Below, piece after piece: positions 20,007-32,285 of a stretch of DNA of 64,000 nucleotides. The notes beneath the pieces are model-generated. The model saw only the letters and a list, made by a program, of their open reading frames with translations. It did not search any database and was not told the DNA's origin. How positions within the stretch are numbered: position 1 is the stretch's first letter; each line of letters begins with the position of its first letter. The stretch lies in NCBI RefSeq assembly GCF_988242995.1, contig NZ_OZ547043.1; one strand, written 5' to 3'. Position numbers and translations under genes: made by a program.

Positions 20007-20369
20007 GGGGCTGATTCTGGATTCGACGGGATTTGCGAAACCCAAGGTGCATGCCGAGGGGCGGTTGGCCTCGTAAAAAGCCGCAAAAAATAGTCGCAAA
20101 CGACGAAAACTACGCTTTAGCAGCTTAATAACCTGCTTAGAGCCCTCTCTCCCTAGCCTCCGCTCTTAGGACGGGGATCAAGAGAGGTCAAACCCAAAAG
20201 AGATCGCGTGGAAGCCCTGCCTGGGGTTGAAGCGTTAAAACTTAATCAGGCTAGTTTGTTAGTGGCGTGTCCGTCCGCAGCTGGCAAGCGAATGTAAAGA
20301 CTGACTAAGCATGTAGTACCGAGGATGTAGGAATTTCGGACGCGGGTTCAACTCCCGCCAGCTCCACCA
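20007..20369 (+). ncRNA. ssrA: tmRNA (transfer-messenger RNA)
   Basis: Begins ggggctgattctggattcgacggg, contains tag-peptide reading frame (…gcaaacgacgaaaactacgctttagcagcttaa), ends …gggttcaactcccgccagctccacca. Confidence 0.97.
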
Positions 20370-20402
20370 CTTGCTCTTCCGGATACGTCCGGAGAAATCC
20401 TG

Positions 20403-20437
20403 AAAGCCCGCATGGCGCAAGCCCTGTGGGCTTTTTT
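20403..20437 (+). terminator. Probable ssrA terminator
   Basis: aaagccc…gggcttt inverted repeat followed by T-run just 3' of ssrA. Confidence 0.5.
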
Positions 20438-20480
20438 GTGTCTACCGTTGTCCGAGGATATCCAGCTGAGTCCAGTGATT

Positions 20481-20534
20481 ATTGGTATACGTTTAGGTAT
20501 ACGGTAAGATGTATACCTAAATGCGTATACCAAT
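20481..20534. repeat. Imperfect 54-bp palindrome of GGTATACGTTTAGGTATAC motifs upstream of int (candidate Int arm-type / operator sites)
   Basis: attggtatacgtttaggtatac … gtatacctaaatgcgtataccaat; same motif recurs at 32027-32049 near attR. Confidence 0.55.
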
Positions 20535-20553
20535 TCATGAAGGAACGGCCAAA

Positions 20554-21753
20554 GTGGCAAGAACGACACGTCCCCTGACCAACACTGAAGTTCTGCGCGC
20601 TAAAGCGTTAGAAAAGGATCTAACGTTGCATGATGGCGATGGCCTTTTTCTGCTCGTTAAAACGAACGGTAAGAAATTATGGCGTTTCCGCTACCAAAAG
20701 CCAGTAACAAAACAGCGGACCATGATTAGTTTAGGAACCTTCCCTGCACTATCCTTGGCTGAAATCAGAAATGTGCGAGCTAAGTATCTTTCCTTGTTAG
20801 CCAAGGGGATCGATCCACAAACACACAATGAACAAGTCACACAACAACAACAAATTGCAGTAGAAAGTATTTTTTCAAACGTTGCTAAAAATTGGTTTGC
20901 CATTAAACGCAATAGCGTTACACCTGATTATGCAAAGGATATATGGCGATCCTTAGAGAAGGACATTTTCCCTGCTATCGGAGAGATTCCTGTTCAGGAA
21001 ATAAAAGCACGTATATTAATTGAAGCCCTAGAACCAATTAAGGCCCGCGGTGCACTCGAGACTGTTCGTCGTTTGGTGCAACGTATTAACGAAATTATGA
21101 TCTACGCTGTCAATACCGGATTAATTGAGGCTAATCCTGCGTCAGGTATTGGCATGGCTTTTGATAAACCCAAAAAGCAAAATTTGCCAACGCTGCGGCC
21201 AGAAGAATTACCTAAACTGATGCATTCTCTAGTAATGTCAAACCTGTCTATTCCTACTCGTTGTCTGATCGAATGGCAACTACTGACACTCGTTCGCCCT
21301 TCAGAAGCCTCTGGCGCCCGCTGGGATGAGATCGATTTAGAATCCAAACTTTGGAGAATTCCTGCTGAAAGGATGAAAGCAAAGCGCGAACATATAGTTC
21401 CTTTATCATCTCAAGCTTTAATTATTCTTGAAGTAATGAAACCCATAAGTGCTCATCGTGAACATATATTTCCTAGCAGGAATAACCCTCAAGAACCGAT
21501 GAATAGCCAAACAGCAAATGCAGCATTAAAACGCATAGGGTACGGAGGAAAGTTAGTTGCACATGGACTCCGTTCTATTGCCAGCACTGCATTAAATGAA
21601 GCCGAATTTAATTCTGACATTATTGAATCAGCTCTTGCACATGTTGATAAAAATGAGGTGAGAAGAGCATATAACCGCTCCACTTATCTTGATAAACGTA
21701 AAGAGATGATGGCTTGGTGGGGAAATTTTATATATAAAAATAATTCATTATAA
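20554..21753 (+). CDS. int: Tyrosine recombinase, P4-type integrase
   Basis: Start chosen at GTG after aggaa RBS giving 399 aa (…ARTTRPLTNTEVLRAKA…), typical of P4-family integrases; ORF track starts at 20521; C-terminal catalytic region (HGLRS…, …Y). Confidence 0.88.
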   Translation: MARTTRPLTNTEVLRAKALEKDLTLHDGDGLFLLVKTNGKKLWRFRYQKPVTKQRTMISLGTFPALSLAEIRNVRAKYLSLLAKGIDPQTHNEQVTQQQQIAVESIFSNVAKNWFAIKRNSVTPDYAKDIWRSLEKDIFPAIGEIPVQEIKARILIEALEPIKARGALETVRRLVQRINEIMIYAVNTGLIEANPASGIGMAFDKPKKQNLPTLRPEELPKLMHSLVMSNLSIPTRCLIEWQLLTLVRPSEASGARWDEIDLESKLWRIPAERMKAKREHIVPLSSQALIILEVMKPISAHREHIFPSRNNPQEPMNSQTANAALKRIGYGGKLVAHGLRSIASTALNEAEFNSDIIESALAHVDKNEVRRAYNRSTYLDKRKEMMAWWGNFIYKNNSL

Positions 21754-21764
21754 AAGGTATTACA

Positions 21765-22799
21765 ATGAATATTGATTCTATAAAACTTCATTTACAAAAT
21801 TTTTTCACAAATAATCCAACTGTTCTTATCGGTTCTGGCCTCTCTCTCGGTGAGGGGATTCCAGGTATGAAAACATTGGGAGAACATCTTAATACAACTA
21901 TCCCCAAATTAGTAAGCGGGGATCTTATAAGAGAATGGGGTATCATAAGTTCCAAACTAAATAATGGTATGGGACTTGAAGATGCCATGGCATTTCTTAA
22001 AGATGAAAGTGAACTTATCCCATTAATTATTCAGCACACCGCAGATCTTATTTTAAAGCATGAAAATACTGTAATATGCTCTGTAATCAATGGAGAAAAA
22101 AATCTAGCATTTACATCTTTATTGAATCACTTAACTTTTAATCAAAATGAATTGATAATTATAACTCCAAACTATGATAGACTAATTGAAATAGCATGTG
22201 AAATTGCTGGTCTAGAAATTTCAACAGGATTTATCAATAGTTATCATTGTATAAATAATCCTGAAGTTGAGTTAGATAAATTCAAAATCACCCACTCTAT
22301 CAAAACCACACGAGGTAAATCTACAGTTCAAATTAGAACTAAAAAACACGTTAAAATATTTAAACCTCATGGTAGTCTTGATTGGTTCAAGGCTGACGAT
22401 AAAATTATCAGGACCAGCTTTCAAAATAAACATAAAAGATTAATTATTACACCAGGTACAAGTAAATTCAGAGCTGGATATCAGCAGCCTTTTGATTGGC
22501 ATAGAGAAAAAGCAAACCATTATATCAAAAGAGCAAAATCACTATTAATTATTGGCTATGGGTTTAATGATGAGCAGTTAGAAGTACATTTGAAATCAAA
22601 AATACGTGAAAAAATACCTGTTTTATTAATGACATATGAATTGACATCAAACGCTCAAAAAATATGTGATGATAATCCTTCTATAACATATGTTATTGCA
22701 GAAGGAAACAATTCCATCGTTTGTATCGATGGCATTAAATATAAAATCGAAAAGAATATTTGGTCTTTAAATGAGTTTGTTAAAGAGGTACTTAAATAA
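21765..22799 (+). CDS. SIR2-like (NAD-binding/NADase family) protein, putative defence effector
   Basis: 344 aa; Rossmann-like VLIGSGLS, TPNYD and KPHGSL motifs as in SIR2/DUF4020 defence proteins; AT-rich; 11 bp after int stop. Confidence 0.75.
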   Translation: MNIDSIKLHLQNFFTNNPTVLIGSGLSLGEGIPGMKTLGEHLNTTIPKLVSGDLIREWGIISSKLNNGMGLEDAMAFLKDESELIPLIIQHTADLILKHENTVICSVINGEKNLAFTSLLNHLTFNQNELIIITPNYDRLIEIACEIAGLEISTGFINSYHCINNPEVELDKFKITHSIKTTRGKSTVQIRTKKHVKIFKPHGSLDWFKADDKIIRTSFQNKHKRLIITPGTSKFRAGYQQPFDWHREKANHYIKRAKSLLIIGYGFNDEQLEVHLKSKIREKIPVLLMTYELTSNAQKICDDNPSITYVIAEGNNSIVCIDGIKYKIEKNIWSLNEFVKEVLK

Positions 22800-24583
22800 T
22801 GGAATATTACGTCATTAACACTGATGAAACATGCTTTATCGGACGAATCGCAAATGTTGATACCGATCGTGCTATTATCATTTCAGAGTCTCCAGAGATC
22901 ATACAAGAACTAACCGTTTTTGACTTGGTTGCTATTGAAGGCAATACCCCCACAGAGTTTCTTGTTGGTATCATTGAAAAAGTAAAACGCTCTATTGGAG
23001 AAATACAAACTATTGATACTGAAGAAAATATTGAAGATGACAGTGAAAAAGATTTCGATAATATCTTCCAAACTTATTCTATCGATCATGATATTCTTCA
23101 AGTAGCTCTTATCGGCACTTTCTGGGAGGTTTACGGGGATAGAAGGAAAATTTTTAAAAGAGGAGCACAATATTTTCCAAAAGTTGAAAAACAAGCATTT
23201 CTTATAAAAAAAGACAGTCTTGAGAAATTAATGTCGGCAGTCGACAATGATACTCCTGATGAGCTAAAACTCATACTAGGCAACTATGGAAATACCAATT
23301 CACGAGCAGTTGCAAATGGGGATAAATTATTTCAGAGACATGCTGCCCTATTGGGGAGTACTGGTTCAGGTAAAAGTTGGACAGTTGCGTCATTACTAGA
23401 ACAAGCCTCAAAATTAAAATACAACAATATTGTACTTTATGATCTTCATGGTGAATACAAAACTTTATCTGATACACATAATAAATCGAACCGCCCGAGC
23501 ATAGCCGATTATTTTAAAATTGCAAGCCCAGGAAATATCGACGATGTAAATAGTATTTATGTACCTCATTGGTTATTAAACAAAGAAGAAATGCTATCAC
23601 TGTTGTTAGATAGAAGCGATAGCAATGCACCTAATCAGGCAGCAAGATTTAGCTACCACGTGAGAGAGCTAAAAAAAGAATACATCACACACAACAGATT
23701 AATACACTTAGAAGATTGTTTGACTGTTGATGCTCCAATACCCTACTCTATCGAGGATCTTATTAGCAGACTGCACGATGATGATCAAGGTATGAAAAAA
23801 GGTACTAATAATAAAGAAATAAAAGGTGATTGGAATGGAAAACTAACAAGATTCATAAGCAGGTTAAGAACAAAAGTAGACGACAAGAGGAACTGTTTTC
23901 TATTCTCAAATAAACCAGAACACAACCAATATGATTGGTTGGAGAAATACGCTTGTAAAATTTTAAAATCAGATAGCACAGATCATGGCATTAAAATAAT
24001 TGATTTTTCTGAAGTTCCTTCAGATATTATGCCTATTGTTATTGGTGTATTGACCAGATTTTTATACAACGTCCAATTTTGGAGATGTGAGACCGAACGA
24101 ACCCCTATAGCATTCGTTTGTGACGAAGCTCATATTTATTTACCCGCTAAGGATACCACTGAGGCTGAAACAAAAATATCCTTATCAATATTCGAGAAAA
24201 TTGCTAAAGAAGGCAGAAAGTACGGAGTATCTTTATTAGTCGTCAGCCAAAGACCTTCTGATGTTAGCAGAACAATACTAAGTCAATGTAATAACATAAT
24301 TTCTCTCAGACTAAGTAATTATAGAGATCAACAGGTAGTTAGTCGGTTAATGCCTGATTCATTGAGTTCATTAACATCCATACTACCAATTCTTGATACT
24401 GGGGAAGCAATAGTTCTTGGCGACTCTGTTCTATTACCAGCTAGAATAAAATTGAATCCACCAACACTCAAGCCCGATAGCGCAACCAGAGCTTTTTGGA
24501 ATGAGTGGGGGGCAATTGAAGCAAAAGAAATCTCTATAGCAAATGCTGTTGAATCACTCAGGAGACAATCTCGTAATCGCTAA
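22799..24583 (+). CDS. HerA-like P-loop ATPase (FtsK/HerA superfamily), partner of the SIR2 protein
   Basis: 594 aa; Walker A GSTGSGKS, Walker B FVCDEAH; start overlaps SIR2 stop (TAATG). Confidence 0.75.
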   Translation: MEYYVINTDETCFIGRIANVDTDRAIIISESPEIIQELTVFDLVAIEGNTPTEFLVGIIEKVKRSIGEIQTIDTEENIEDDSEKDFDNIFQTYSIDHDILQVALIGTFWEVYGDRRKIFKRGAQYFPKVEKQAFLIKKDSLEKLMSAVDNDTPDELKLILGNYGNTNSRAVANGDKLFQRHAALLGSTGSGKSWTVASLLEQASKLKYNNIVLYDLHGEYKTLSDTHNKSNRPSIADYFKIASPGNIDDVNSIYVPHWLLNKEEMLSLLLDRSDSNAPNQAARFSYHVRELKKEYITHNRLIHLEDCLTVDAPIPYSIEDLISRLHDDDQGMKKGTNNKEIKGDWNGKLTRFISRLRTKVDDKRNCFLFSNKPEHNQYDWLEKYACKILKSDSTDHGIKIIDFSEVPSDIMPIVIGVLTRFLYNVQFWRCETERTPIAFVCDEAHIYLPAKDTTEAETKISLSIFEKIAKEGRKYGVSLLVVSQRPSDVSRTILSQCNNIISLRLSNYRDQQVVSRLMPDSLSSLTSILPILDTGEAIVLGDSVLLPARIKLNPPTLKPDSATRAFWNEWGAIEAKEISIANAVESLRRQSRNR

Positions 24584-24608
24584 TAAAAATATTATCTAGC
24601 AACGCGCA

Positions 24609-24627
24609 GTGCTTTCCCCGCCTCGCC
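24609..24627 (-). other. P2/P4-type cos site (19-nt cohesive end sequence)
   Basis: gtgctttccccgcctcgcc is the exact reverse complement of the recalled P2/P4 cohesive end GGCGAGGCGGGGAAAGCAC. Confidence 0.75.
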
Positions 24628-24727
24628 CGCCCGCTTTGCGGGGCGGTTTCAGTGCAGTTGCACTGACACGCTCAGGCCGCGCCGGGAATGGCGCGGTCTG
24701 CAGAAAATGAGGCAGGAAAACGCATGC

Positions 24728-24762
24728 AAAGCCATGCACCTTATCGATGCATGGCTTTTTTC
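24728..24762 (+). terminator. Rho-independent terminator between cargo operon and psu
   Basis: gccatgca-ccttatcga-tgcatggc hairpin followed by TTTTTT. Confidence 0.6.
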
Positions 24763-24791
24763 AGTAAAAACGGGCGGATTTTCGGGGAATT

Positions 24792-25364
24792 TTACACAGA
24801 CTGATGTGATGCCAGTTGCGCACTTTTACGCGAAAAAATCATGTTCTGCGCAGGAGTGAATTTTTCACGGCTGTCATCCACCGAAGCCGCGTCAGGCCTG
24901 AATCCGATGGTCGTTAAAATGTCGCTATCCTGTGCGGAATAATTAATTTTTTCACCCTTCGCAAGCCAGGACTGGAGGGCTTCACGCAGGGCATCTGTGG
25001 CACGCTGTATGGCACAGTTTCGGGCAATGGCCGTCAGCTCACTGTAGCCCATCAGCTCCGGTGCCAGTGCCGCCGCCAGTGCTGTGCCGTGCTGCTGCAT
25101 AAAATCATTCAGCCGGTCGCGGATGCTGATGTGCTGAACGGCTTCATGCGAACGAATATAACGACCGGCGGCCTGATTCACCTGCCATTTTCTGACTTCG
25201 ATAATATTGCGTAATTCGTCCAGGCGACTGACGTTTCTGCCTTCTCCTGACAGAAGCCGCAGGTATTCCTGTTCGGCCGCTGCCAGCTCATTTTTGCGTT
25301 GCAGCCATGCTGCTTTGTTATTCTGACAGGTGTCAAAGGCCTGCTGTAAGGCTGTGCTTTCCAT
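24792..25364 (-). CDS. psu: Polarity suppression protein Psu (P4-like)
   Basis: 190 aa ORF MESTALQQAFDTCQNNKAAWLQRK…, recalled as P4 Psu; length matches. Confidence 0.85.
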   Translation of the reverse strand: MESTALQQAFDTCQNNKAAWLQRKNELAAAEQEYLRLLSGEGRNVSRLDELRNIIEVRKWQVNQAAGRYIRSHEAVQHISIRDRLNDFMQQHGTALAAALAPELMGYSELTAIARNCAIQRATDALREALQSWLAKGEKINYSAQDSDILTTIGFRPDAASVDDSREKFTPAQNMIFSRKSAQLASHQSV

Positions 25365-25437
25365 CGTTATCTCTTTCTCATCATGCTGAAGAATAAAAAT
25401 ACGGTGTGCGGCGACGGCCGGTGTTAACCGGCAGCCC

Positions 25438-25938
25438 TCATTCCAGACGCAGCGAATATGATTGTGTTTTTAACCGTACTGGCGGCAGTTCCTGTTTTTC
25501 ATGCAGGCGTTCTGCCAGTTCGTCCGGCGTGACCGGGCGGACAATGAAACGGTTGATGGTCTGAAGCGTTTTAAACACCAGACCACAGCCCGGATCCGTG
25601 CACACATAAAAACGCTCGGTGACTTCCTGAGACAGACGCCGCGATGTTCTTGACAGTGCAAGGCCTTTACATCTCCGACAACAATATCCGGTAACAAGCA
25701 TTCTTTTCGGCCGTTTCATACTGCCGGAGGCTGACGTCAGTGAATCGCGGTATCTCTGTTTGCCTGAAATGTATTCCATTCCTGAATCTTTACAGTCAGA
25801 GAAAAAGCTTTCACTCGCTTCAAATGTCGCAGAGCAATAAATATTCCGGCACTGTGCAATCATTATCTTGGTGCCATCGTCCATGAAATGTGCGCGACGG
25901 GTGTGAGCAACATGTCCACACGACGGGCAGTAAATCAT
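25438..25938 (-). CDS. delta: Late-gene transcriptional activator Delta (Ogr/Delta zinc-finger family)
   Basis: 166 aa; CPSCGH…C…C zinc-finger at N-terminus and a second Cys cluster; same size as P4 Delta. Confidence 0.85.
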   Translation of the reverse strand: MIYCPSCGHVAHTRRAHFMDDGTKIMIAQCRNIYCSATFEASESFFSDCKDSGMEYISGKQRYRDSLTSASGSMKRPKRMLVTGYCCRRCKGLALSRTSRRLSQEVTERFYVCTDPGCGLVFKTLQTINRFIVRPVTPDELAERLHEKQELPPVRLKTQSYSLRLE

Positions 25939-26669
25939 GACAGCAGCCCTCTGGCCTTAAGCTCTGCTCCCTGCTGGTCTATTTTGTCCTGCCACACCTT
26001 GCGCTGTGCCGGTGTGCCTGCCACCTCATAATCCATGTGCGGGAGTGTTGCCGCTGACAGTCCGGCCAGCCGGAGAACCGGCTCGCCGGTGAGGCTGATT
26101 TGCATCTGTTTTATTTTCTGTTCCAGCGATGATTTCACCTGCTGCATGACAGCCTTTTCCGGCGCGACGTAGCCCTGATGGCCGGTGGTGTTGGCGAGCG
26201 GATTTTCCTGTACCAGGATGCTCAGATGCATTGCCCGGACAAGCGCCTCACAGGTTTCATTCAGGGCGTGTTCCAGCTCATGCTCTGCATACAGACTCAG
26301 CAGGTGATGATGTGCCTTCCGGTAGGCGGTGGCCGTGCTGTCACACGCCCCTTTCAGGCGTTCACATTCAAAATTCAGCACCACGGCCAGATTGTCATAT
26401 TCCTGTACCAGCTCCCGGCGTGCCACGCGCTCAATGTGGCGCTGTTTCAGCTCATCGCTCAGGACACCACCGGCTGCACGAAAGGCCGTGCGCCAGTCGT
26501 CAGCGTCGTTTCCGTCGGCCTGCGTCAGCGCATTTTTTTCCTGCTCTGCCCGTTCAATGGCCGTGATGGTCTCATCCATCAGGCGGGCGTTCTCAAGATG
26601 AGCGGCTCTGGCCTTTTCCAGTTGTGCCAGCGCGGGTTGCAGATATTCAGGGATGGTGTTGTCAGACAT
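25935..26669 (-). CDS. sid: Capsid size determination protein Sid (P4-like)
   Basis: Start chosen at MSDNTIPEYLQPALAQLEKAR (244 aa); ORF track extends 22 codons upstream; overlaps delta start. Confidence 0.8.
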   Translation of the reverse strand: MSDNTIPEYLQPALAQLEKARAAHLENARLMDETITAIERAEQEKNALTQADGNDADDWRTAFRAAGGVLSDELKQRHIERVARRELVQEYDNLAVVLNFECERLKGACDSTATAYRKAHHHLLSLYAEHELEHALNETCEALVRAMHLSILVQENPLANTTGHQGYVAPEKAVMQQVKSSLEQKIKQMQISLTGEPVLRLAGLSAATLPHMDYEVAGTPAQRKVWQDKIDQQGAELKARGLLS

Positions 26670-26703
26670 TTTCCGGCTCCTCGTCACTTCAGGTTGAGAA
26701 AAT

Positions 26704-26759
26704 TGTGACGTACACCGGACAACAACACGACGCATTGCAGATGTGCCAGCCCTGACACA
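26704..26759 (-). promoter_or_regulatory. Candidate Psid late promoter with two TGT-N12-ACA Delta/Ogr-type dyads
   Basis: tgt-gacgtacaccgg-aca (26704-26721) and tgt-gccagccctgac-aca (26742-26759), centres 38 bp apart, immediately upstream of sid. Confidence 0.6.
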
Positions 26760-26838
26760 GGAGACTCATCCTCAGACCGGCAAGCCAGGAAAAGGTCGCA
26801 GGAAAAACCGGCTTACTGTTTGTTTTTTTATATTTTAC

Positions 26839-26942
26839 TGTTCACCTCTGTTCACCTTAAGAAAAAAGATAAGTAATACAGTAAGTTAAAGGATGAACAA
26901 TCGCAGTAATGACTGTTCACCGTCTGTTCACCACTGTTCACC
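26839..26942. repeat. Cluster of five direct TGTTCACC octamers (P4 ori-like alpha-binding iterons)
   Basis: tgttcacc at 26839, 26849, 26914, 26925, 26935; same octamer recurs in repeats downstream of alpha. Confidence 0.7.
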
Positions 26943-27101
26943 CGCTCATGGACTTTTTGTGCTGTTTACTACTGTTTGTTTTTATTAATTCGCCGGGAAT
27001 GAATAAGAAGAAACGATTTGTATTTCACTATAAAAATTACGAATTGCTTTAAGTGGCTTTAAATGACTTTAAGTGGAGATGAACAAAAAATACACAAGCA
27101 T

Positions 27102-27119
27102 TGTAAGGCTGCCGGAACA
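27102..27119 (+). promoter_or_regulatory. Candidate Delta-dependent leftward-operon promoter element (TGT-N12-ACA)
   Basis: tgt-aaggctgccgga-aca upstream of the AlpA/Vis-like gene; an imperfect second dyad follows. Confidence 0.35.
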
Positions 27120-27221
27120 AATCCCCCCTGTTGCGTCTGCCGAAAATATTCACAAAATAAAGCGCTACCCGAAGCCGGACGGACTTATCCGGTGCTGTAT
27201 GGACATTAACGAGGTAGCCCG

Positions 27222-27488
27222 ATGCAATCTGTTTTTTCTTCCCCGTCTCCCGCCCCAGTGACGCCACTGATGCCGCTGCCGGACATCACGCAGGAGCGTT
27301 TTTTACGTCTGCCGGAAGTGATGCACCTGTGCGGCCTGTCACGCTCGACCATCTATGAACTTATCCGTAAGGGGGAATTTCCGCCGCAGGTGAGTCTTGG
27401 CGGTAAAAATGTGGCCTGGCTGCACTCTGAAGTCACCGCATGGATGGCCGGGCGCATTGCCGGACGCAAACGGGGGTACGACGCATGA
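27222..27488 (+). CDS. AlpA/Vis-family small DNA-binding protein (excisionase/regulator)
   Basis: …[52 protein letters not shown] is AlpA-like HTH; a later start at Met-17 (27270) is possible. Confidence 0.75.
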
Positions 27489-27886
27489 TGATGCCCGCTC
27501 TGCAAAAAGTCCCTTTTTCTGGCTTGCCTTTTTCCGGCATTTGCGGATATAGTTTTTCCGCTGCCGCAAAATCGGCAGCCGGGCGTGGAAACCCGAGTAT
27601 GTTATCGGCGACATATGACGCGCCATGCGTCTTTTTTTGTGTCGCAATCAACGCCACAGAGCGCCAGATTATGGTGTGGTGTGTGGTCAGTCGAGCAAAT
27701 GGCACTCCGTGCATTCTGCCCGCGTCCGCTCATTATACCGCAGAGTCAATGGTAGCTCAGGCGGGGCAGCCTCCGCGCTGGCCGGTTTCCGATAACGCCG
27801 GTATTTCCACCCCCGTCTGGGCTATCGCCATCGAGCGTGGAAACTCCGGCGATAGCGTCATTTACGCTGTTATCGGAGGTTGCCTT

Positions 27887-28084
27887 ATGGCTACGACCCT
27901 TATCCCCTCACACCCTGAATTTGTCTTTGTGTTTGCGGCTGTCCGTCGCGCAGACCGTCATCCCCGTATCTGTATGCTTCGCACCGTCGCCGGTGATGAA
28001 CGCAGCGCCCGCCGTTCCCTTGTCCGTGACTATGTGCTCTCCCTTGCTGCCCGTCTGCCGGTGGTGGAGGTGTCCCGTGCGTAA
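27887..28084 (+). CDS. Small hypothetical protein (65 aa) in satellite left operon
   Basis: ATG 7 nt after GGAGG; lies within long frame 27440-28084; overlaps next gene start. Confidence 0.35.
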
Positions 28085-28364
28085 TAAAAAAGCCCCTCAG
28101 ACCGTCTCAGCACGTCATGACGCCCGTGAACACCTCAGCATTGAGGCTTACCATAAGCTCAACCGCGCCAGCGCCGTATCCCAGTTTGTTGGGGGTGATT
28201 TGATTCACCGTGAACTCTCCGGCCTGCATCAGCTCTACATTCCGCATATTTTCAGCTACCTGAATGAAGATATTGATTTTGTGCTGAATGAGCTGAAAGC
28301 CAAAGGCCTGTGCCGCGATTTTCTCGCCCAGCAGAAAGACCGGGGAGACAGGACGCATGTTTGA
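28077..28364 (+). CDS. Hypothetical 95-aa protein, candidate P4 epsilon-like (anti-repressor) by position and size
   Basis: GTG start after ggagg; 95 aa, same size as P4 epsilon and directly upstream of a 151-aa ORF; sequence identity not verified. Confidence 0.4.
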
Positions 28365-28812
28365 TTTTCCCCAGCCCGGTGAGATTTACCGTTCTGCCGG
28401 TTTTCCCGATGTGGCCGTGGTCGGCATTCTGGAAGACGGTATTCCGTGGGAAATGCCGTACCGCTGCCCGGACATTGTCTGGAACCCGTACCGCCGTAAA
28501 TTCAGTATCCTTGTGCGTATCCTCGCTGACGGGCGCACCACAGACATCCCGCTGGGGCGTTTTCTGCGGGAATTTACCTGTGACCGTCCTGACCTGTTTA
28601 AACGCAGCCCCGTAAACCGGCATGCGGTACTGAAAGAAATGGCCGGAGACCCGGAATTACAGAAATGGCGGGAGAAATATCTGGATATTTACCCGCAGGA
28701 CCCTGTTCCGGTCAGCCGGGCGGCACCGGTGGCGCGGGAATGGCGGGAAATTCCCCGCACGGAGCCTGACCCGGAAACCACCCCGGATAACAGTTACCGC
28801 AATTATCTGTAA
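28357..28812 (+). CDS. Hypothetical protein, P4 orf151-like
   Basis: 151 aa ORF, start overlaps preceding stop (ATGTTTGA); position and length match P4 orf151. Confidence 0.55.
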   Translation: MFDFPQPGEIYRSAGFPDVAVVGILEDGIPWEMPYRCPDIVWNPYRRKFSILVRILADGRTTDIPLGRFLREFTCDRPDLFKRSPVNRHAVLKEMAGDPELQKWREKYLDIYPQDPVPVSRAAPVAREWREIPRTEPDPETTPDNSYRNYL

Positions 28813-28947
28813 TTAAAAAACGACACCCGAAAAATTAAATGTGCGTATTCGCGCAGGGATACGCACGTCTTCAGGAGACGCAGATATGCCTTATCAGTTA
28901 ATGCAACCGGCACGGAATGCAGTCATCTGTCACAGGGAGGAAAACAA

Positions 28948-29268
28948 ATGAAAACACCCTTACCGCCCGTCTTACGCGCTGCCCTTTACCGTCGCGCTGT
29001 CGCCTGTGCCTGGCTGACCGTGTGCGAACGTCAGCACCGCTACCCGCATCTCACCCTTGAGTCACTGGAGGCGGCCATCGCCGCTGAGCTGGAAGGCTTT
29101 TATCTGCGCCAGCACGGTGAGGAAAAAGGGCGTCAGATAGCCTGTGCCCTGCTGGAAGATTTAATGGAATCCGGCCCCCTGAAGGCCGCGCCGTCGCTGT
29201 CCTTTCTCGGGCTGGTTGTGATGGATGAACTCTGTGCCCGTCACATAAAAGCGCCGGTACTGCACTGA
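28948..29268 (+). CDS. Hypothetical 106-aa protein, candidate Cnr-like copy-number regulator
   Basis: 106 aa ORF immediately upstream of alpha, as for P4 cnr; assignment by position and size only. Confidence 0.4.
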
Positions 29269-29282
29269 AGGAGAACAACACC

Positions 29283-31616
29283 ATGAAAATGAACGTAACC
29301 GCCACCGTCAGCCATGCGCTCGGCCACTGGCCGCGTATTCTCCCGGCGCTGGGGATTCAGGTGCTGAAGAACCATCATCAGCCCTGTCCGGTCTGTGGCG
29401 GGAGTGACCGCTTCCGTTTTGATGACAGGGAGGGGCGCGGCACCTGGTACTGCAATCAGTGTGGTGCCGGTGACGGCCTGAAACTGGTTGAAAAGGTGTT
29501 TGGTGTCTCCCCGTCCGACGCGGCCGCAAAGGTGGCTGCCGTGACCGGCAGTCTGCCCCCGGCTGACCCGGCAGTGACGGCTGCCGCCGTTGCTGAAACA
29601 GACGCTGCCCGGAAGAACGCCGCCGCACTGGTACAAACCCTGATGGCAAAAACCCGTCCCGGAACCGGTAACGCCTACCTGACCCGCAAGGGCTTTCCCG
29701 GCCGGGAATGCCGGATGCTGACCGGCACACACAGAGCCGGTGGCGTGAGCTGGCGCGCCGGTGACCTTGTGGTGCCACTGTATGACGACAGCGGCGAACT
29801 GGTTAACCTTCAGTTAATCAGTGCTGACGGCCGTAAGCGCACCCTGAAAGGCGGACAGGTCAGGGGCACCTGTCACACCCTTGAAGGACAGAATCAGGCC
29901 GGAAAACGTCTGTGGATAGCGGAGGGATACGCGACCGCACTTACCGTGCATCACCTGACCGGTGAAACGGTGATGGTGGCGCTTTCTTCCGTGAATCTCC
30001 TTTCTCTGGCCAGCCTTGCCCGGCAGAAGCATCCGGCCTGTCAGATTGTCCTTGCTGCTGACCGTGACCTCAGCGGTGACGGCCAGAAAAAAGCCGCCGC
30101 AGCCGCAGATGCGTGTGAAGGTGTTGTTGCCCTGCCGCCGGTCTTCGGTGACTGGAATGATGCCTTCACGCAGTACGGCGGGGAAGCCACCCGTAAGGCC
30201 ATTTATGATGCCATCCGGCCACCGGCTGAAAGCCCGTTCGACACCATGAGCGAAGCGGAGTTTTCCGCCATGAGTACCAGCGAAAAGGCCATGCGTATCT
30301 ATGAGCATTACGGCGAGGCGCTCGCGGTCGATGCCAACGGCCAGCTTCTGTCCCGCTATGAAAATGGTGTCTGGAAGGTGCTGCCGCCACAGGACTTTGC
30401 CCGGGATGTGGCCGGGCTGTTTCAGCGTCTGCGAGCGCCGTTCTCCTCCGGGAAGGTGGCCTCCGTGGTGGACACCCTGAAGCTGATTATTCCGCAGCAG
30501 GAAGCCCCCTCCCGCCGCCTGATTGGCTTTCGTAACGGCGTGCTCGACACGCAGAACGGCACGTTCCACCCGCACAGTCCGTCACACTGGATGCGCACCC
30601 TGTGCGATGTGGATTTCACCCCGCCGGTGGACGGTGAAACGCTGGAAACCCACGCCCCCGCCTTCTGGCGCTGGCTTGACCGTGCCGCCGGTGGCCGTGC
30701 GGAAAAACGCGACGTGATTCTGGCTGCACTGTTTATGGTGCTGGCAAACCGCTACGACTGGCAGCTCTTTCTGGAGGTGACCGGTCCCGGCGGCAGCGGC
30801 AAAAGTATCATGGCCGAAATCGCCACCCTGCTGGCCGGGGAGGATAACGCCACGTCGGCCACCATCGAGACGCTGGAATCCCCGCGTGAACGTGCCGCGT
30901 TAACTGGCTTCTCACTGATACGCCTGCCGGATCAGGAAAAATGGAGCGGCGACGGTGCCGGACTCAAGGCCATCACCGGCGGCGATGCGGTGTCCGTTGA
31001 CCCGAAATACCGGGATGCGTACTCCACGCACATCCCGGCGGTGATTCTGGCCGTGAACAATAACCCGATGCGCTTCACCGACCGCAGCGGCGGCGTGTCA
31101 CGCCGGCGGGTGATTATTCACTTCCCGGAACAGATAGCCCCGCAGGAGCGCGACCCGCAGCTTAAGGACAAAATCACCCGCGAGCTGGCGGTCATCGTGC
31201 GTCACCTGATGCAGAAGTTCAGCGACCCGATGCTCGCCCGGTCACTGCTTCAGTCCCAGCAGAACTCAGACGAGGCACTGAACATCAAACGGGATGCCGA
31301 CCCGACGTTTGATTTTATCGGCTATCTGGAAACCCTGCCGCAGACCAGCGGCATGTATATGGGGAACGCCAGTATCATCCCGCGTAATTACCGTAAATAC
31401 CTCTATCACGCCTATCTGGCCTACATGGAGGCAAACGGCTACCGGAATGTACTCAGTCTGAAAATGTTCGGACTGGGGCTGCCGGTGATGCTGAAAGAAT
31501 ACGGGCTGAATTACGAGAAGCGCCATACCAAACAGGGGATACAGACCAACCTGACGCTGAAAGAAGAAAGCTACGGCGACTGGCTGCCAAAATGTGACGA
31601 CCCTGCAACAGCCTGA
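29283..31616 (+). CDS. alpha: Alpha primase-helicase replication protein (P4-like)
   Basis: 777 aa, same length as P4 alpha; zinc-binding primase motif CPVCGGSDRFRF…YCNQCG; Walker A GPGGSGKS. Confidence 0.9.
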   Translation: MKMNVTATVSHALGHWPRILPALGIQVLKNHHQPCPVCGGSDRFRFDDREGRGTWYCNQCGAGDGLKLVEKVFGVSPSDAAAKVAAVTGSLPPADPAVTAAAVAETDAARKNAAALVQTLMAKTRPGTGNAYLTRKGFPGRECRMLTGTHRAGGVSWRAGDLVVPLYDDSGELVNLQLISADGRKRTLKGGQVRGTCHTLEGQNQAGKRLWIAEGYATALTVHHLTGETVMVALSSVNLLSLASLARQKHPACQIVLAADRDLSGDGQKKAAAAADACEGVVALPPVFGDWNDAFTQYGGEATRKAIYDAIRPPAESPFDTMSEAEFSAMSTSEKAMRIYEHYGEALAVDANGQLLSRYENGVWKVLPPQDFARDVAGLFQRLRAPFSSGKVASVVDTLKLIIPQQEAPSRRLIGFRNGVLDTQNGTFHPHSPSHWMRTLCDVDFTPPVDGETLETHAPAFWRWLDRAAGGRAEKRDVILAALFMVLANRYDWQLFLEVTGPGGSGKSIMAEIATLLAGEDNATSATIETLESPRERAALTGFSLIRLPDQEKWSGDGAGLKAITGGDAVSVDPKYRDAYSTHIPAVILAVNNNPMRFTDRSGGVSRRRVIIHFPEQIAPQERDPQLKDKITRELAVIVRHLMQKFSDPMLARSLLQSQQNSDEALNIKRDADPTFDFIGYLETLPQTSGMYMGNASIIPRNYRKYLYHAYLAYMEANGYRNVLSLKMFGLGLPVMLKEYGLNYEKRHTKQGIQTNLTLKEESYGDWLPKCDDPATA

Positions 31617-31623
31617 CCCACCT

Positions 31624-31648
31624 GACCGGCATCTGCCGGTCTTTTTTT
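31624..31648 (+). terminator. Rho-independent terminator after alpha
   Basis: gaccggca/tgccggtc stem followed by TTTTTTT. Confidence 0.6.
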
Positions 31649-31666
31649 ATCCCTGAATCCCCCGAA

Positions 31667-31962
31667 GGTGAACAATCCAGTGTTCACCCTTCACCGTATA
31701 TTCACCCGTTATCACACTGAAATTAAAAGAGAAAAACGAAAGGTGAACAGTGTGAACAATCAAATCAAAAAAAACTTTTTTTCTTCCTGTGTGATTTTCA
31801 GCACGGGAAATTAATCCCCTGCACAAGTCACACCGGCAGAATGCCGGAGGTGAAGAATCGAATGTTCACCCTTCACCCATTATTCACCACCTATCACTCT
31901 GAAATAAAAGGAGAAAACAGAAAGGTGAACAGTGTGAACAGTTCTTTCGAAAAAAAATTTTT
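31667..31962. repeat. crr-like region: two ~115-bp direct repeats carrying TGTTCACC / GGTGAACA iterons
   Basis: Repeat units at ~31667-31790 and ~31849-31962 (ggtgaa.aatc..atgttcacccttcacc…aaaggtgaacagtgtgaaca…aaaaaa.ttttttt), period ~182 bp. Confidence 0.75.
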
Positions 31963-32026
31963 TTCCTGTACGATATAGCATCAATCCAAGTAAAAATGCG
32001 CTTTCATTTCACATTAACTTACAGCC

Positions 32027-32049
32027 ATTGGTATACGATTAGGTATACG
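32027..32049. repeat. Distal copy of GGTATACG(A/T)TTAGGTATACG motif near attR
   Basis: attggtatacgattaggtatacg, direct repeat of 20481-20503. Confidence 0.55.
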
Positions 32050-32106
32050 CACAAAAAATGAATTAAACAAAATCATTAAAAATCAAAGCAATACAATATT
32101 TATTCA

Positions 32107-32124
32107 AACTCCGCCAGCTCCACC
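32107..32124 (+). repeat. attR: imperfect direct repeat of ssrA 3' end
   Basis: actccgccagctccacca versus ssrA end actcccgccagctccacca (20351-20369). Confidence 0.75.
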
Positions 32125-32285
32125 AATCATGATTGAACGGTGCAAGGACAACACCAACAAAAACAGGAAGTTATAAGTCTCAGCAAGACACCGACCAGAC
32201 GGTGAGGAGACAAAAAAGGATACGCAAAGGAGCCGCGGCTCCTGGTGATATGAAAGCCCACAGATGTGGGCTTTTTCGTTGATGG

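What the first reader, a model, noticed from the sequence alone, without database searches (positions are those of the whole stretch)
20481..20534. GGTATACG(T/A)TTAGGTATAC motifs at both ends of the satellite
A 54-bp imperfect palindrome built from this motif lies just upstream of int and partly overlaps the longest possible int start. A direct copy (attggtatacgattaggtatacg) lies at 32027-32049, about 60 bp inside attR. Repeats at both element ends near the att core are what integrase arm-type binding sites look like; the palindrome could also be an int autoregulatory operator.
Basis: seen in the sequence. Interest (0 to 1): 0.45.

Follow-up and report, generated by a model that had tools for sequence, protein, structure and literature searches.

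The report
Integrase arm sites of P4-like satellite
The repeated GGTATAC words at both ends of this E. coli P4-like satellite are very probably the accessory ("arm-type") docking sites of its own integrase, laid out as in phage P4 and doubling as the integrase gene's self-repression operator; this is an expected feature in a new sequence variant.

Summary
Six GGTATAC words lie at 20481-20534 (two direct, two inverted) and 32027-49 (two direct). The 19-mer occurs twice against 0.02 expected.

The element (20370-32125) is a P4-like satellite inserted in ssrA. Its Vis is 98% identical to P4 Vis, but its Int is only 36% identical to P4 Int.

The word layout matches the "attP arm sequence repeats" annotated in P4 record X51522:
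- A 12-bp tandem pair lies on the P arm.
- A tandem pair lies 111 bp (P4: 113) beyond the tRNA-like CCA end.
- An inverted copy abuts int.
- The pair-to-pair distance in attP is 186 nt, against 185 nt in P4.

The words and spacings are conserved in more than 20 enterobacterial genera while the flanks diverge. They also occur in Aeromonas elements with a tRNA-Leu core.

A natural variant, GGTACAC, replaces GGTATAC at every strong site at both ends together (13 elements, none discordant). All 10 Int residues that separate the two types lie in the N-terminal arm-binding domain (p=2e-7).

The palindrome centre holds a conserved TAnnAT 17 bp after TTGGTA, a likely int promoter, so Int binding should repress int as in P4.

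This is a new member of a known kind. Binding itself is untested.

The parts
20007..20369 (+). ssrA (tmRNA gene), the integration target. Its 3' end is rebuilt by element DNA.
   Evidence: ARAGORN. RefSeq annotation of the near-identical locus.
20355..20369 (+). attL core CCGCCAGCTCCACCA, identical to the attR core.
   Evidence: Read directly. Conserved in relatives.
20403..20440 (+). Element-borne stem-loop plus T-run that replaces the native ssrA terminator. It is part of the P' arm.
   Evidence: I1. Conserved in all relatives.
20451..20473 (+). Three TCC(G) repeats with a 10-bp period (20451, 20461, 20471), just upstream of P'1. They are shared with P4 and with Aeromonas relatives. Candidate Vis (excisionase) sites; this is inferred.
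   Evidence: Alignment of P' arms. Conservation. Vis is 98% identical to P4 Vis. P4 Vis footprints in attP according to PMC2603039.
20481..20491 (+). P'1 arm-type site ATTGGTATACG. It contains the candidate -35 TTGGTA (20482-20487).
   Evidence: Conserved in 45 of 52 unbiased relatives and switched to GGTACAC in 5.
20492..20503 (+). P'2 arm-type site TTTAGGTATACG, 12 bp after P'1.
   Evidence: GGTATAC is invariant in loci found with a pattern that did not require it.
20505..20510 (+). Candidate -10 hexamer TAAGAT of the int promoter, at the palindrome centre, 17 bp after TTGGTA.
   Evidence: TAnnAT, TATAAT or TATACT in about 76 of about 80 forward-oriented unique relatives; variation is concentrated at positions 3-5. 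It scores 8 of 12, below the 9-of-12 threshold of the generic scan, which found nothing.
20511..20521 (-). P'3, the inner inverted copy (GTATACCTAAA on the + strand). A weak or degenerate site.
   Evidence: I3. Variable in relatives and absent in Aeromonas relatives and in P4.
20524..20534 (-). P'4, the outer inverted arm-type site (CGTATACCAAT on the + strand). It lies between the predicted transcription start and the int ribosome-binding site, and corresponds to P4's inverted repeat at the int start.
   Evidence: I2. P4 annotation. Conserved in relatives.
20554..21753 (+). int, a P4-family tyrosine integrase of 399 aa with a GTG start. Domains: arm-binding (N-terminal), central, catalytic.
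   Evidence: Pfam PF13356, PF22022 and PF00589. Start per PGAP. PDB 3JU0 and 3JTZ homology. 36% identical to P4 Int.
27222..27488 (+). vis (P4 ORF88 homologue), the recombination directionality factor.
   Evidence: 98% identical to P4 Vis.
32027..32037 (+). P1 arm-type site ATTGGTATACG on the P arm (right end of the prophage).
   Evidence: Conserved in 54 unique P arms.
32038..32049 (+). P2 arm-type site ATTAGGTATACG, 12 bp after P1.
   Evidence: Its GGTAYAC ends exactly 60 bp before CTCCGCCAGC in 51 of 54 unique P arms.
32058..32064 (+). ATGAATT, the window's version of a conserved AAAGTTGAATT block in the otherwise divergent, AT-rich P-arm spacer. Its binding partner is unknown; an accessory bending protein is a candidate.
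   Evidence: Column information content.
32111..32125 (+). attR core CCGCCAGCTCCACCA.

Best explanation
**What it is.** The GGTATAC words are the arm-type (accessory) binding sites of the satellite's own P4-family integrase.

**Layout.** In the excised circle the attP reads:
- P1-P2, a tandem pair of 12-bp period;
- 60 bp of AT-rich spacer;
- the core (the 3' end of ssrA);
- about 110 bp carrying a replacement terminator and three TCC repeats of 10-bp period;
- P'1-P'2, a tandem pair;
- the int -10 element;
- P'3 (weak) and P'4, both inverted;
- the int ribosome-binding site and GTG start.

**Recombination (inferred).** The N-terminal arm-binding domain of Int docks on these words while the central and catalytic domains hold the core. 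Int therefore bridges arms and core to assemble the intasome for integration and, with Vis, for excision.

**Regulation (inferred).** After integration the P' cluster lies in attL directly over the int promoter (TTGGTA-17 bp-TAAGAT). The same Int binding should therefore repress int transcription.

**Shown versus inferred.**
- Shown here: sequence, layout, conservation, co-variation with the Int N-domain, and domain homology.
- Inferred: physical binding, promoter activity and repression.
For: **1. P4 layout.**
- GenBank X51522 annotates 12-bp 'attP arm sequence repeats' as a tandem pair, the core, a tandem pair, and an inverted copy at the int ATG.
- The window has the same plan with a different word.
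- Distance from the CCA end to P'1 is 111 nt, against 113 nt in P4.
- Distance from the P2 end to the P'1 start in attP is 186 nt, against 185 nt in P4.
- The P' arms align.

**2. Int domain.** Int has PF13356 Arm-DNA-bind_3. Its residues 8-93 match the solved arm-binding domains 3JU0 (E=6e-17) and 3JTZ/3RMP.

**3. Footprint.**
- In 52 unique upstream regions chosen by Int homology only, 45 keep the exact words and 5 keep the layout with GGTACAC.
- P-arm information content is 1.82 bits per column in the pair, against 0.42 upstream of it and 1.04 in the spacer.
- The pair-to-core spacing is 60 bp in 51 of 54 unique P arms.
- CCA-to-P'1 distances fall at 111/112, 121/122 and 133 bp, which are steps of about one helical turn.
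- The sites are found in more than 20 genera of Enterobacterales.

**4. Independence from the core.** Aeromonas elements with a tRNA-Leu core carry the same words at the same 111-bp distance.

**5. Co-variation.**
- GGTATAC changes to GGTACAC together in P'1, P'2, P'4, P1 and P2: 8 T-type and 5 C-type elements have both ends on one contig, and none is discordant.
- Among 123 unique Ints, all 10 columns that fully separate the types lie in residues 4-92 and none in 96-399 (Fisher p=2e-7).
- T-versus-C identity is 65.5% in residues 1-95 but about 83% in the central and catalytic parts, which equals the within-type identity.

**6. Operator.**
- The central hexamer is TAnnAT, TATAAT or TATACT, 17 bp after TTGGTA.
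- P4 Int represses its own gene by DNA binding near the int start site, and overlap of attL with the int promoter is widespread (PMC2951348).
Against: - No binding, footprint or expression data exist for this element.
- The generic sigma-70 scan found no promoter, because the candidate scores 8 of 12, below its threshold.
- The equivalent hexamers in P4 (TTAACT) and Aeromonas (CGATTC) are poor -10 elements, so the promoter position may differ among family members.
- Parts of the comparative set were retrieved with patterns that required the words. For those loci the invariance of P'1 and P'4 is partly circular.
- In the excised circle the attP arms and the int 5' end lie within about 500 bp of one another. 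Linkage by recombination could therefore contribute to the association between word and N-domain.
- The Kp4865-2 Int (58% identical) has different and less regular upstream repeats, so the layout is not universal.
Confidence: 0.88

Rival explanations
1. The 54-bp palindrome acts as a nucleic-acid structure rather than as protein-binding words. It could be a DNA cruciform, or an RNA hairpin in a read-through or int leader transcript acting as terminator or attenuator.
For: As single-stranded DNA it folds at -18.1 kcal/mol with z=-8.7. Some relatives change P'2 and P'3 in parallel, from TAGG/CCTA to TTGG/CCAA.
Against: - The inner inverted arm P'3 is degenerate in many relatives and missing in Aeromonas relatives and in P4, while the outer sites persist.
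- The same words occur as a purely direct pair on the P arm, and they switch T to C together with the P' arm. Pairing cannot explain this.
- A proper terminator already lies upstream at 20403-20440.
- The loop carries a conserved -10-like hexamer, so the predicted transcript would start inside the stem.
Confidence: 0.04
2. The words are operator sites for another regulator rather than for Int. Candidates are Vis, the satellite's immunity system or a host factor. On this view they control int only, and the P-arm copy has an unrelated role.
For: In P4, Vis also down-regulates int (PMC2951348). An inverted repeat over a promoter is typical of dimeric repressors.
Against: - Vis is 98% identical to P4 Vis, yet P4 carries a different word (TTGGGGGCAT) at the same positions. 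The word follows Int (36% identical), not Vis.
- The T/C switch tracks substitutions only in the Int N-domain.
- The TCC repeats, which P4 and the window share, are the better candidates for Vis sites.
Confidence: 0.05
3. The words are arm-type sites used only for recombination. The int promoter lies elsewhere, so there is no autoregulation.
For: The promoter is only predicted. The P4 and Aeromonas counterparts of the hexamer are weak. No promoter passed the generic scan.
Against: TAnnAT, or a perfect TATAAT, is conserved 17 bp after TTGGTA across about 76 of about 80 unique relatives. A terminator lies immediately upstream, leaving little room for another promoter. There is also the P4 and KplE1 precedent.
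Confidence: 0.15

Closest known systems
Bacteriophage P4 attP arm sequence repeats (annotated in GenBank X51522; attributed from my own knowledge to Pierson & Kahn 1987) and Int/Vis control of the P4 int promoter (Piazzolla et al. 2006, as described in PMC2951348)
   Same: - Same satellite backbone: psu, delta, sid, vis, ORF106 and alpha. Vis is 98% identical.
- Same attP plan: a 12-bp tandem pair on each arm plus an inverted copy at the int start.
- Same distances to within 1-3 bp.
- Homologous P' arm, including the TCC repeats.
   Different: - The word is TTGGTATACG instead of TTGGGGGCAT.
- The core is the ssrA 3' end instead of tRNA-Leu (leuX).
- Int is only 36% identical.
- There is an extra weak inverted copy (P'3), which makes a near-perfect palindrome.
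- No sixth copy lies inside int.
Arm-binding (DUF4102 / PF13356) domains of the genomic-island integrases HPI Int and HAI7 Int (PDB 3JTZ/3RMP and 3JU0; Szwagierczak et al. 2009, cited in PMC8138268)
   Same: The Int N-terminal residues 8-93 align with both solved domains, at E=6e-17 and 1e-9. It belongs to the same IntSXT/P4-type subgroup, which is defined by this domain.
   Different: The cognate DNA words of those integrases were not available for comparison, because the paper is not held. Sequence identity is moderate.
KplE1 IntS / attL-overlapping, negatively autoregulated integrase promoters (Panis et al. 2010, PMC2951348)
   Same: The integrase gene lies next to the tRNA-type target, and its promoter is embedded among P' arm-type and RDF sites. 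Negative autoregulation is predicted.
   Different: The integrase lineage and the words differ. Regulation here is predicted only.
CP4-57-type integrase modules at ssrA (phi467 intA; the second island in E. coli STEC2017-197)
   Same: Same target gene. The plan of two direct plus two inverted words abutting the int ATG is the same. The Int is 49% identical.
   Different: The word is ATGGGACCC / GGGTCCC. These modules can sit in tandem with the element type described here.

Membership tests
Arm-type binding sites of heterobivalent tyrosine integrases | Short repeated words on both sides of the core in attP, unrelated in sequence to the core | tested here: met
   Two words 60 bp before the core and four words 111 bp after it. 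The word GGTATAC is absent from the core.
Arm-type binding sites of heterobivalent tyrosine integrases | The cognate integrase carries an N-terminal arm-binding domain | tested here: met
   PF13356, E=1.4e-21. PDB 3JU0 and 3JTZ.
Arm-type binding sites of heterobivalent tyrosine integrases | Sites and their spacing are conserved among related elements while neighbouring DNA diverges | tested here: met
   The set is free of motif ascertainment.
Arm-type binding sites of heterobivalent tyrosine integrases | Site sequence co-varies with the integrase arm-binding domain, not with the core or the catalytic domain | tested here: met
   The T-type/C-type switch is concordant in 13 of 13 elements with both ends. 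All 10 discriminating residues lie within positions 4-92. The same word occurs with a tRNA-Leu core in Aeromonas.
Arm-type binding sites of heterobivalent tyrosine integrases | Physical binding by the Int N-domain, and a requirement for recombination | not testable with these tools
   Needs EMSA or footprinting and integration/excision assays.
P4 attP architecture | 12-bp tandem pair on each arm and an inverted copy at the int start, with P4-like distances | tested here: met
   Distances are 111 versus 113 nt and 186 versus 185 nt.
P4 attP architecture | P4's own word (TTGGGGGCAT) and its tRNA-Leu core | tested here: not met
   The word is TTGGTATACG and the core is ssrA. This is therefore a specificity variant of the plan, not P4's att site.
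Negatively autoregulated int promoter overlapping attL | The int promoter lies within the arm-site cluster | tested here: inconclusive
   TTGGTA-17-TAAGAT, with TAnnAT conserved. However, it falls below the generic scan threshold and no start site is mapped.
Negatively autoregulated int promoter overlapping attL | Int lowers expression of its own gene | not testable with these tools
   Needs a reporter or RT-qPCR with and without Int.

The most novel reading that the evidence does not exclude
The GGTATAC and GGTACAC elements may represent two natural, mutually orthogonal arm-site/arm-binding-domain specificities. They share the same core, central domain and catalytic domain. A one-base change in every arm word is matched by a handful of N-domain substitutions: T4I, T11N, A18P, L23F and M57N.

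If this is true, it gives a compact 'recognition code' for DUF4102 arm-binding domains. It would also explain how closely related satellites stacked in tandem at ssrA could avoid assembling mixed intasomes.
Probability: 0.3. Interest if true: 0.5.

Novelty: new member of a known kind. Interest (0 to 1): 0.3.

Why it matters
- It marks the functional ends and the likely int control region of a common family of ssrA-inserted P4-like satellites. Related int modules occur at ssrA in 418 of 5,426 complete E. coli genomes and in many other Enterobacterales. Here the satellite carries a SIR2-HerA defence cargo.
- The defined words and fixed spacings give a simple signature for delimiting such satellites and resolving tandem arrays.
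- The natural T/C word switch, paired with N-domain substitutions, offers a ready-made experiment on how this integrase class reads its arm sites.
- Conceptually it confirms an expected mechanism rather than revealing a new one.

Tried and rejected
- **Hairpin or terminator reading of the palindrome.** Folded. Rejected because P'3 is degenerate or absent in relatives, and because the direct P-arm copy co-varies.
- **Longest ORF start at 20521.** Rejected in favour of GTG 20554.
- **First motif scan of viral contigs with GGTATACN5GGTATAC.** Mostly chance hits. It was usable only after filtering for the ssrA core.
- **Generic promoter scan.** Found nothing. The promoter proposal rests on conservation instead.
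- **IHF consensus (WATCAANNNNTTR).** Inspected by eye in the P-arm spacer; no convincing match. The conserved AAAGTTGAATT block is left unassigned.
- **Tandem-array test of orthogonality.** I asked whether neighbouring elements prefer different arm types. Only 3 junctions were found (T-T, C-T, T-C), so it is uninformative.
- **Klebsiella phage Kp4865-2 (Int 58% identical).** Its upstream repeats (TTTTAGGCACCT inverted; ATGGCGACAG tandem) do not fit one word cleanly. Not pursued.
- **Primary papers.** Piazzolla 2006 and Szwagierczak 2009 are not held. Their content is cited only through PMC2951348, PMC2603039 and PMC8138268. Pierson & Kahn 1987 and Cali 2004 were not looked up.

Full report
**1.

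Window 20481-20534 reads ATTGGTATACGTTTAGGTATACGGTAAGATGTATACCTAAATGCGTATACCAAT.
- It consists of two nested 11-nt inverted pairs, each 100% complementary: 20481-91/20524-34 and 20492-502/20511-21.
- On the left half there is a direct repeat of 12-nt period.
- A direct copy, ATTGGTATACGATTAGGTATACG, lies at 32027-32049.
- The 19-mer GGTATACGWTTAGGTATAC occurs twice in 64 kb against 0.02 expected; 0 of 100 shuffles gave 2 or more matches.
- Six of the window's ten GGTATAC heptamers are in these two clusters.
- No extra copies above chance exist at up to 2 mismatches.

**2. Context.**

- ARAGORN places ssrA (tmRNA) at 20007-20369.
- The 15-bp core CCGCCAGCTCCACCA is at 20355-20369 (attL) and 32111-32125 (attR).
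- Between the two cores lies a P4-like satellite:
  - int;
  - a SIR2-like protein plus a HerA-like ATPase;
  - psu, delta and sid on the opposite strand;
  - an Ash-family protein;
  - the ORF106 family protein (DUF5375);
  - an alpha-type primase-helicase.
- A 99.7% identical locus in E. coli EC21GDE043 is annotated the same way, and it starts int at the GTG that corresponds to window 20554.
- The ATG at 20521 inside the palindrome is not conserved in relatives, whereas the start at 20554 is. The palindrome is therefore wholly upstream of int.
- Related int modules at ssrA (at least 80% of the query covered) occur in 418 of 5,426 complete E. coli genomes.

**3. Same plan as P4.**

The GenBank record of P4 (X51522) annotates 12-bp 'attP arm sequence repeats'. 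In the int orientation the order is:
- a tandem pair (4174-4151);
- the 20-bp core (4097-4078);
- a tandem pair (3965-3942);
- an inverted copy (3926-3915) that overlaps the longest int ATG.

The P4 word is TTGGGGGCAT. The window shows the same plan with TTGGTATACG.

| Distance | Window | P4 |
|---|---|---|
| CCA end of the core to P'1 | 111 nt | 113 nt |
| End of the P-arm pair to start of the P'-arm pair (reconstructed attP) | 186 nt | 185 nt |

- The P' arms of the window, P4 and an Aeromonas relative align. The shared features include a T-run of the replacement terminator and three TCC repeats of 10-bp period just before P'1 (window 20451, 20461, 20471).
- The satellite's Vis is 98% identical to P4 Vis, whereas Int is only 36% identical to P4 Int. 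The int-attP module has therefore been exchanged on a P4 backbone, and the word follows Int, not Vis.
- The shared TCC repeats are the natural candidates for Vis sites. This is an inference. P4 Vis is reported to footprint in attP (PMC2603039).

**4. The integrase has the right domain.**

- Pfam finds Arm-DNA-bind_3 (PF13356), the integrase central domain and the catalytic domain.
- Residues 8-93 match the solved arm-binding domains 3JU0 (E=6e-17) and 3JTZ/3RMP, 'CP4-like integrase'.
- PMC8138268 describes this DUF4102 domain as the arm-binding domain of the IntSXT subgroup.

**5. Conservation.**

*Motif-independent sample.* This sample comprised 80 IMG/VR loci found by Int homology, with Int 77-85% identical. 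It gave 52 unique upstream regions:
- 45 keep P'1, P'2 and P'4 exactly;
- 5 keep the layout with GGTACAC;
- 1 is mixed;
- 1 is decayed;
- 1 has a point change.

*Genome scan.* A scan of one genome per species with the outer palindrome words found about 55 real loci.
- They fall in more than 20 genera, including Escherichia, Salmonella, Klebsiella, Enterobacter, Serratia, Yersinia (with Y. pestis), Pantoea, Erwinia, Pectobacterium, Photorhabdus, Hafnia, Morganella and Edwardsiella.
- P'2 and the central hexamer were not required by the pattern, yet they are conserved.

*Spacing on the P' arm.* The distance from the CCA end to P'1 takes the following values:

| Distance (bp) | Loci |
|---|---|
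| 109 | 1 |
| 111 | 33 |
| 112 | 5 |
| 121 | 9 |
| 122 | 19 |
| 133 | 2 |

The three main classes are about one helical turn apart. This fits a phasing constraint, although few independent indel events underlie it.

*P arm.* Among 54 unique P-arm sequences:
- the pair has 1.82 bits per column, against 0.42 immediately upstream of it and 1.04 in the spacer;
- the distance from the second word to CTCCGCCAGC is exactly 60 bp in 51 of 54.

**6. Independence from the core.**

Two Aeromonas genomes carry the same words next to a tRNA-Leu gene rather than ssrA.
- The arrangement is two direct words plus one inverted word over the int ATG, as in P4.
- The words lie 111 bp from the tRNA's CCA end.
- Their Int is only 40% identical overall to the window's Int, with the N-domain the most similar part at 47%.

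**7. Co-variation, the strongest evidence.**

- In the GGTACAC variant every strong site changes together: P'1, P'2, P'4 (as GTGTACC), P1 and P2.
- For elements with both ends on one contig, 8 distinct T-type and 5 distinct C-type elements were found, and none was discordant. The P arm is about 11.5 kb away in the prophage and is a direct repeat, so base pairing cannot explain this.
- Among 123 unique full-length Ints there were 93 T-type, 29 C-type and 1 mixed.
- All 10 alignment columns that completely separate the types lie at residues 4, 11, 13, 18, 19, 23, 57, 70, 90 and 92. None lies in residues 96-399 (Fisher p=2e-7 against variable columns).
- Between-type identity drops only in the N-domain:

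| Int region | T versus C | Within T | Within C |
|---|---|---|---|
| Residues 1-95 | 65.5% | 83% | 89% |
| Central domain (96-200) | 82.8% | 85% | 92% |
| Catalytic domain (201-399) | 82.6% | 81% | 85% |

- Caveat: in the excised circle the arms and the int 5' end are contiguous, so recombinational linkage may add to functional co-evolution.

**8. Operator reading.**

- The centre of the palindrome is TAAGAT (20505-20510), 17 bp after the TTGGTA inside P'1 (20482-20487).
- Across about 80 forward-oriented unique relatives the hexamer is TAAGAT, TAGGAT, TAGAAT, TAAAAT, TATGAT or TACGAT. In C-type elements it is TATAAT or TATACT. Positions 1, 2 and 6 are essentially fixed and positions 3-5 vary.
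- A terminator lies just upstream at 20403-20440, so this is the most plausible int promoter.
- Int bound at P'1/P'2 (over the -35 and the spacer) and at P'4 (about +6 to +17) would repress it.
- PMC2951348 reports, citing Piazzolla 2006, that P4 Int represses its own gene by DNA binding near the int start site. It also reports that overlap of attL with the int promoter is widespread.
- The candidate scores 8 of 12 and was missed by the generic scan. The hexamers at the equivalent position in P4 and Aeromonas are weak. This step therefore remains inferred.

**9. Rivals.**

- *Structural hairpin.* Its energy is favourable at -18.1 kcal/mol, z=-8.7. It is contradicted by the degeneracy or absence of P'3 in relatives and by the P-arm co-variation.
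- *A non-Int regulator such as Vis.* Contradicted because the word follows Int, not Vis.
- *Recombination-only sites without autoregulation.* This cannot be excluded without expression data.

**10. Verdict.**

- The feature is the attP arm-site set of an ssrA-specific P4-family integrase. It is a new sequence variant of a well-known kind.
- The natural GGTATAC/GGTACAC switch, tied to a few N-domain residues, is the most useful by-product.

Noticed in passing
window 21765-24583: A SIR2-like protein (344 aa) and a HerA-like ATPase (594 aa) lie between int and psu. This is the variable cargo position of P4-like satellites. A relative (L003) carries different genes at the same position, including an ABC-three-component system component.
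   Followed up: partly
window 20451-20473; P4 (L004) 3996-3974; L174: Three TCC(G) repeats of exact 10-bp period lie just upstream of P'1. They are conserved between the window, P4 and Aeromonas elements even though the arm words or cores differ. They are candidate Vis (excisionase) sites.
   Followed up: partly
window 20403-20440 and about 32243-32275: The element brings its own stem-loop terminator for the rebuilt ssrA. The native ssrA terminator is displaced to just beyond attR.
   Followed up: no
L148 and L174 (Aeromonas veronii, A. taiwanensis): The same GGTATAC arm words occur at the same 111-bp distance, but next to a tRNA-Leu gene. The integrase is 40% identical to the window's Int. 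Arm specificity is therefore retained while core specificity differs.
   Followed up: partly
L002 27850-28040; L126 1130-1200: A second, CP4-57-type integrase lies in tandem right after the satellite's attR. It has its own set of two direct plus two inverted words (ATGGGACCC / GGGTCCC) abutting its ATG. Junction cores in such arrays read CCGCCAGCCCACCA, one base shorter than the functional ssrA end.
   Followed up: partly
L001 attR (E. coli EC21GDE043): In the near-identical element the attR core reads CCGCCAGCCAATCATG. It lacks the TCCAC of the window's CCGCCAGCTCCACCAATCATG, so this is a small deletion at the right junction.
   Followed up: no
window 32058-32064 and the P arms of relatives: A conserved AAAGTTGAATT block lies about 10 bp after the P-arm pair, in an otherwise scrambled AT-rich spacer. 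It does not fit the IHF consensus well, and its partner is unknown.
   Followed up: partly
window 32286-36983 (- strand): A 1565-aa AIDA/pertactin-type autotransporter adhesin gene lies directly outside attR. In strain EC21GDE043, glaH follows within about 1.2 kb of the element's last annotated gene (alpha primase), with no such adhesin gene.
   Followed up: no
L161 (Yersinia pestis NCTC5923): The P' cluster and the int start are present, but no ssrA core lies within 200 bp upstream. The upstream DNA appears replaced, which suggests a rearranged or relocated remnant.
   Followed up: no
L257 and L261: L257 is a mixed element: P'1 is GGTACAC while P'2 and P'4 are GGTATAC, and its Int has T-type residues. 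L261 has lost one unit and has mutated words, so it looks decayed.
   Followed up: partly
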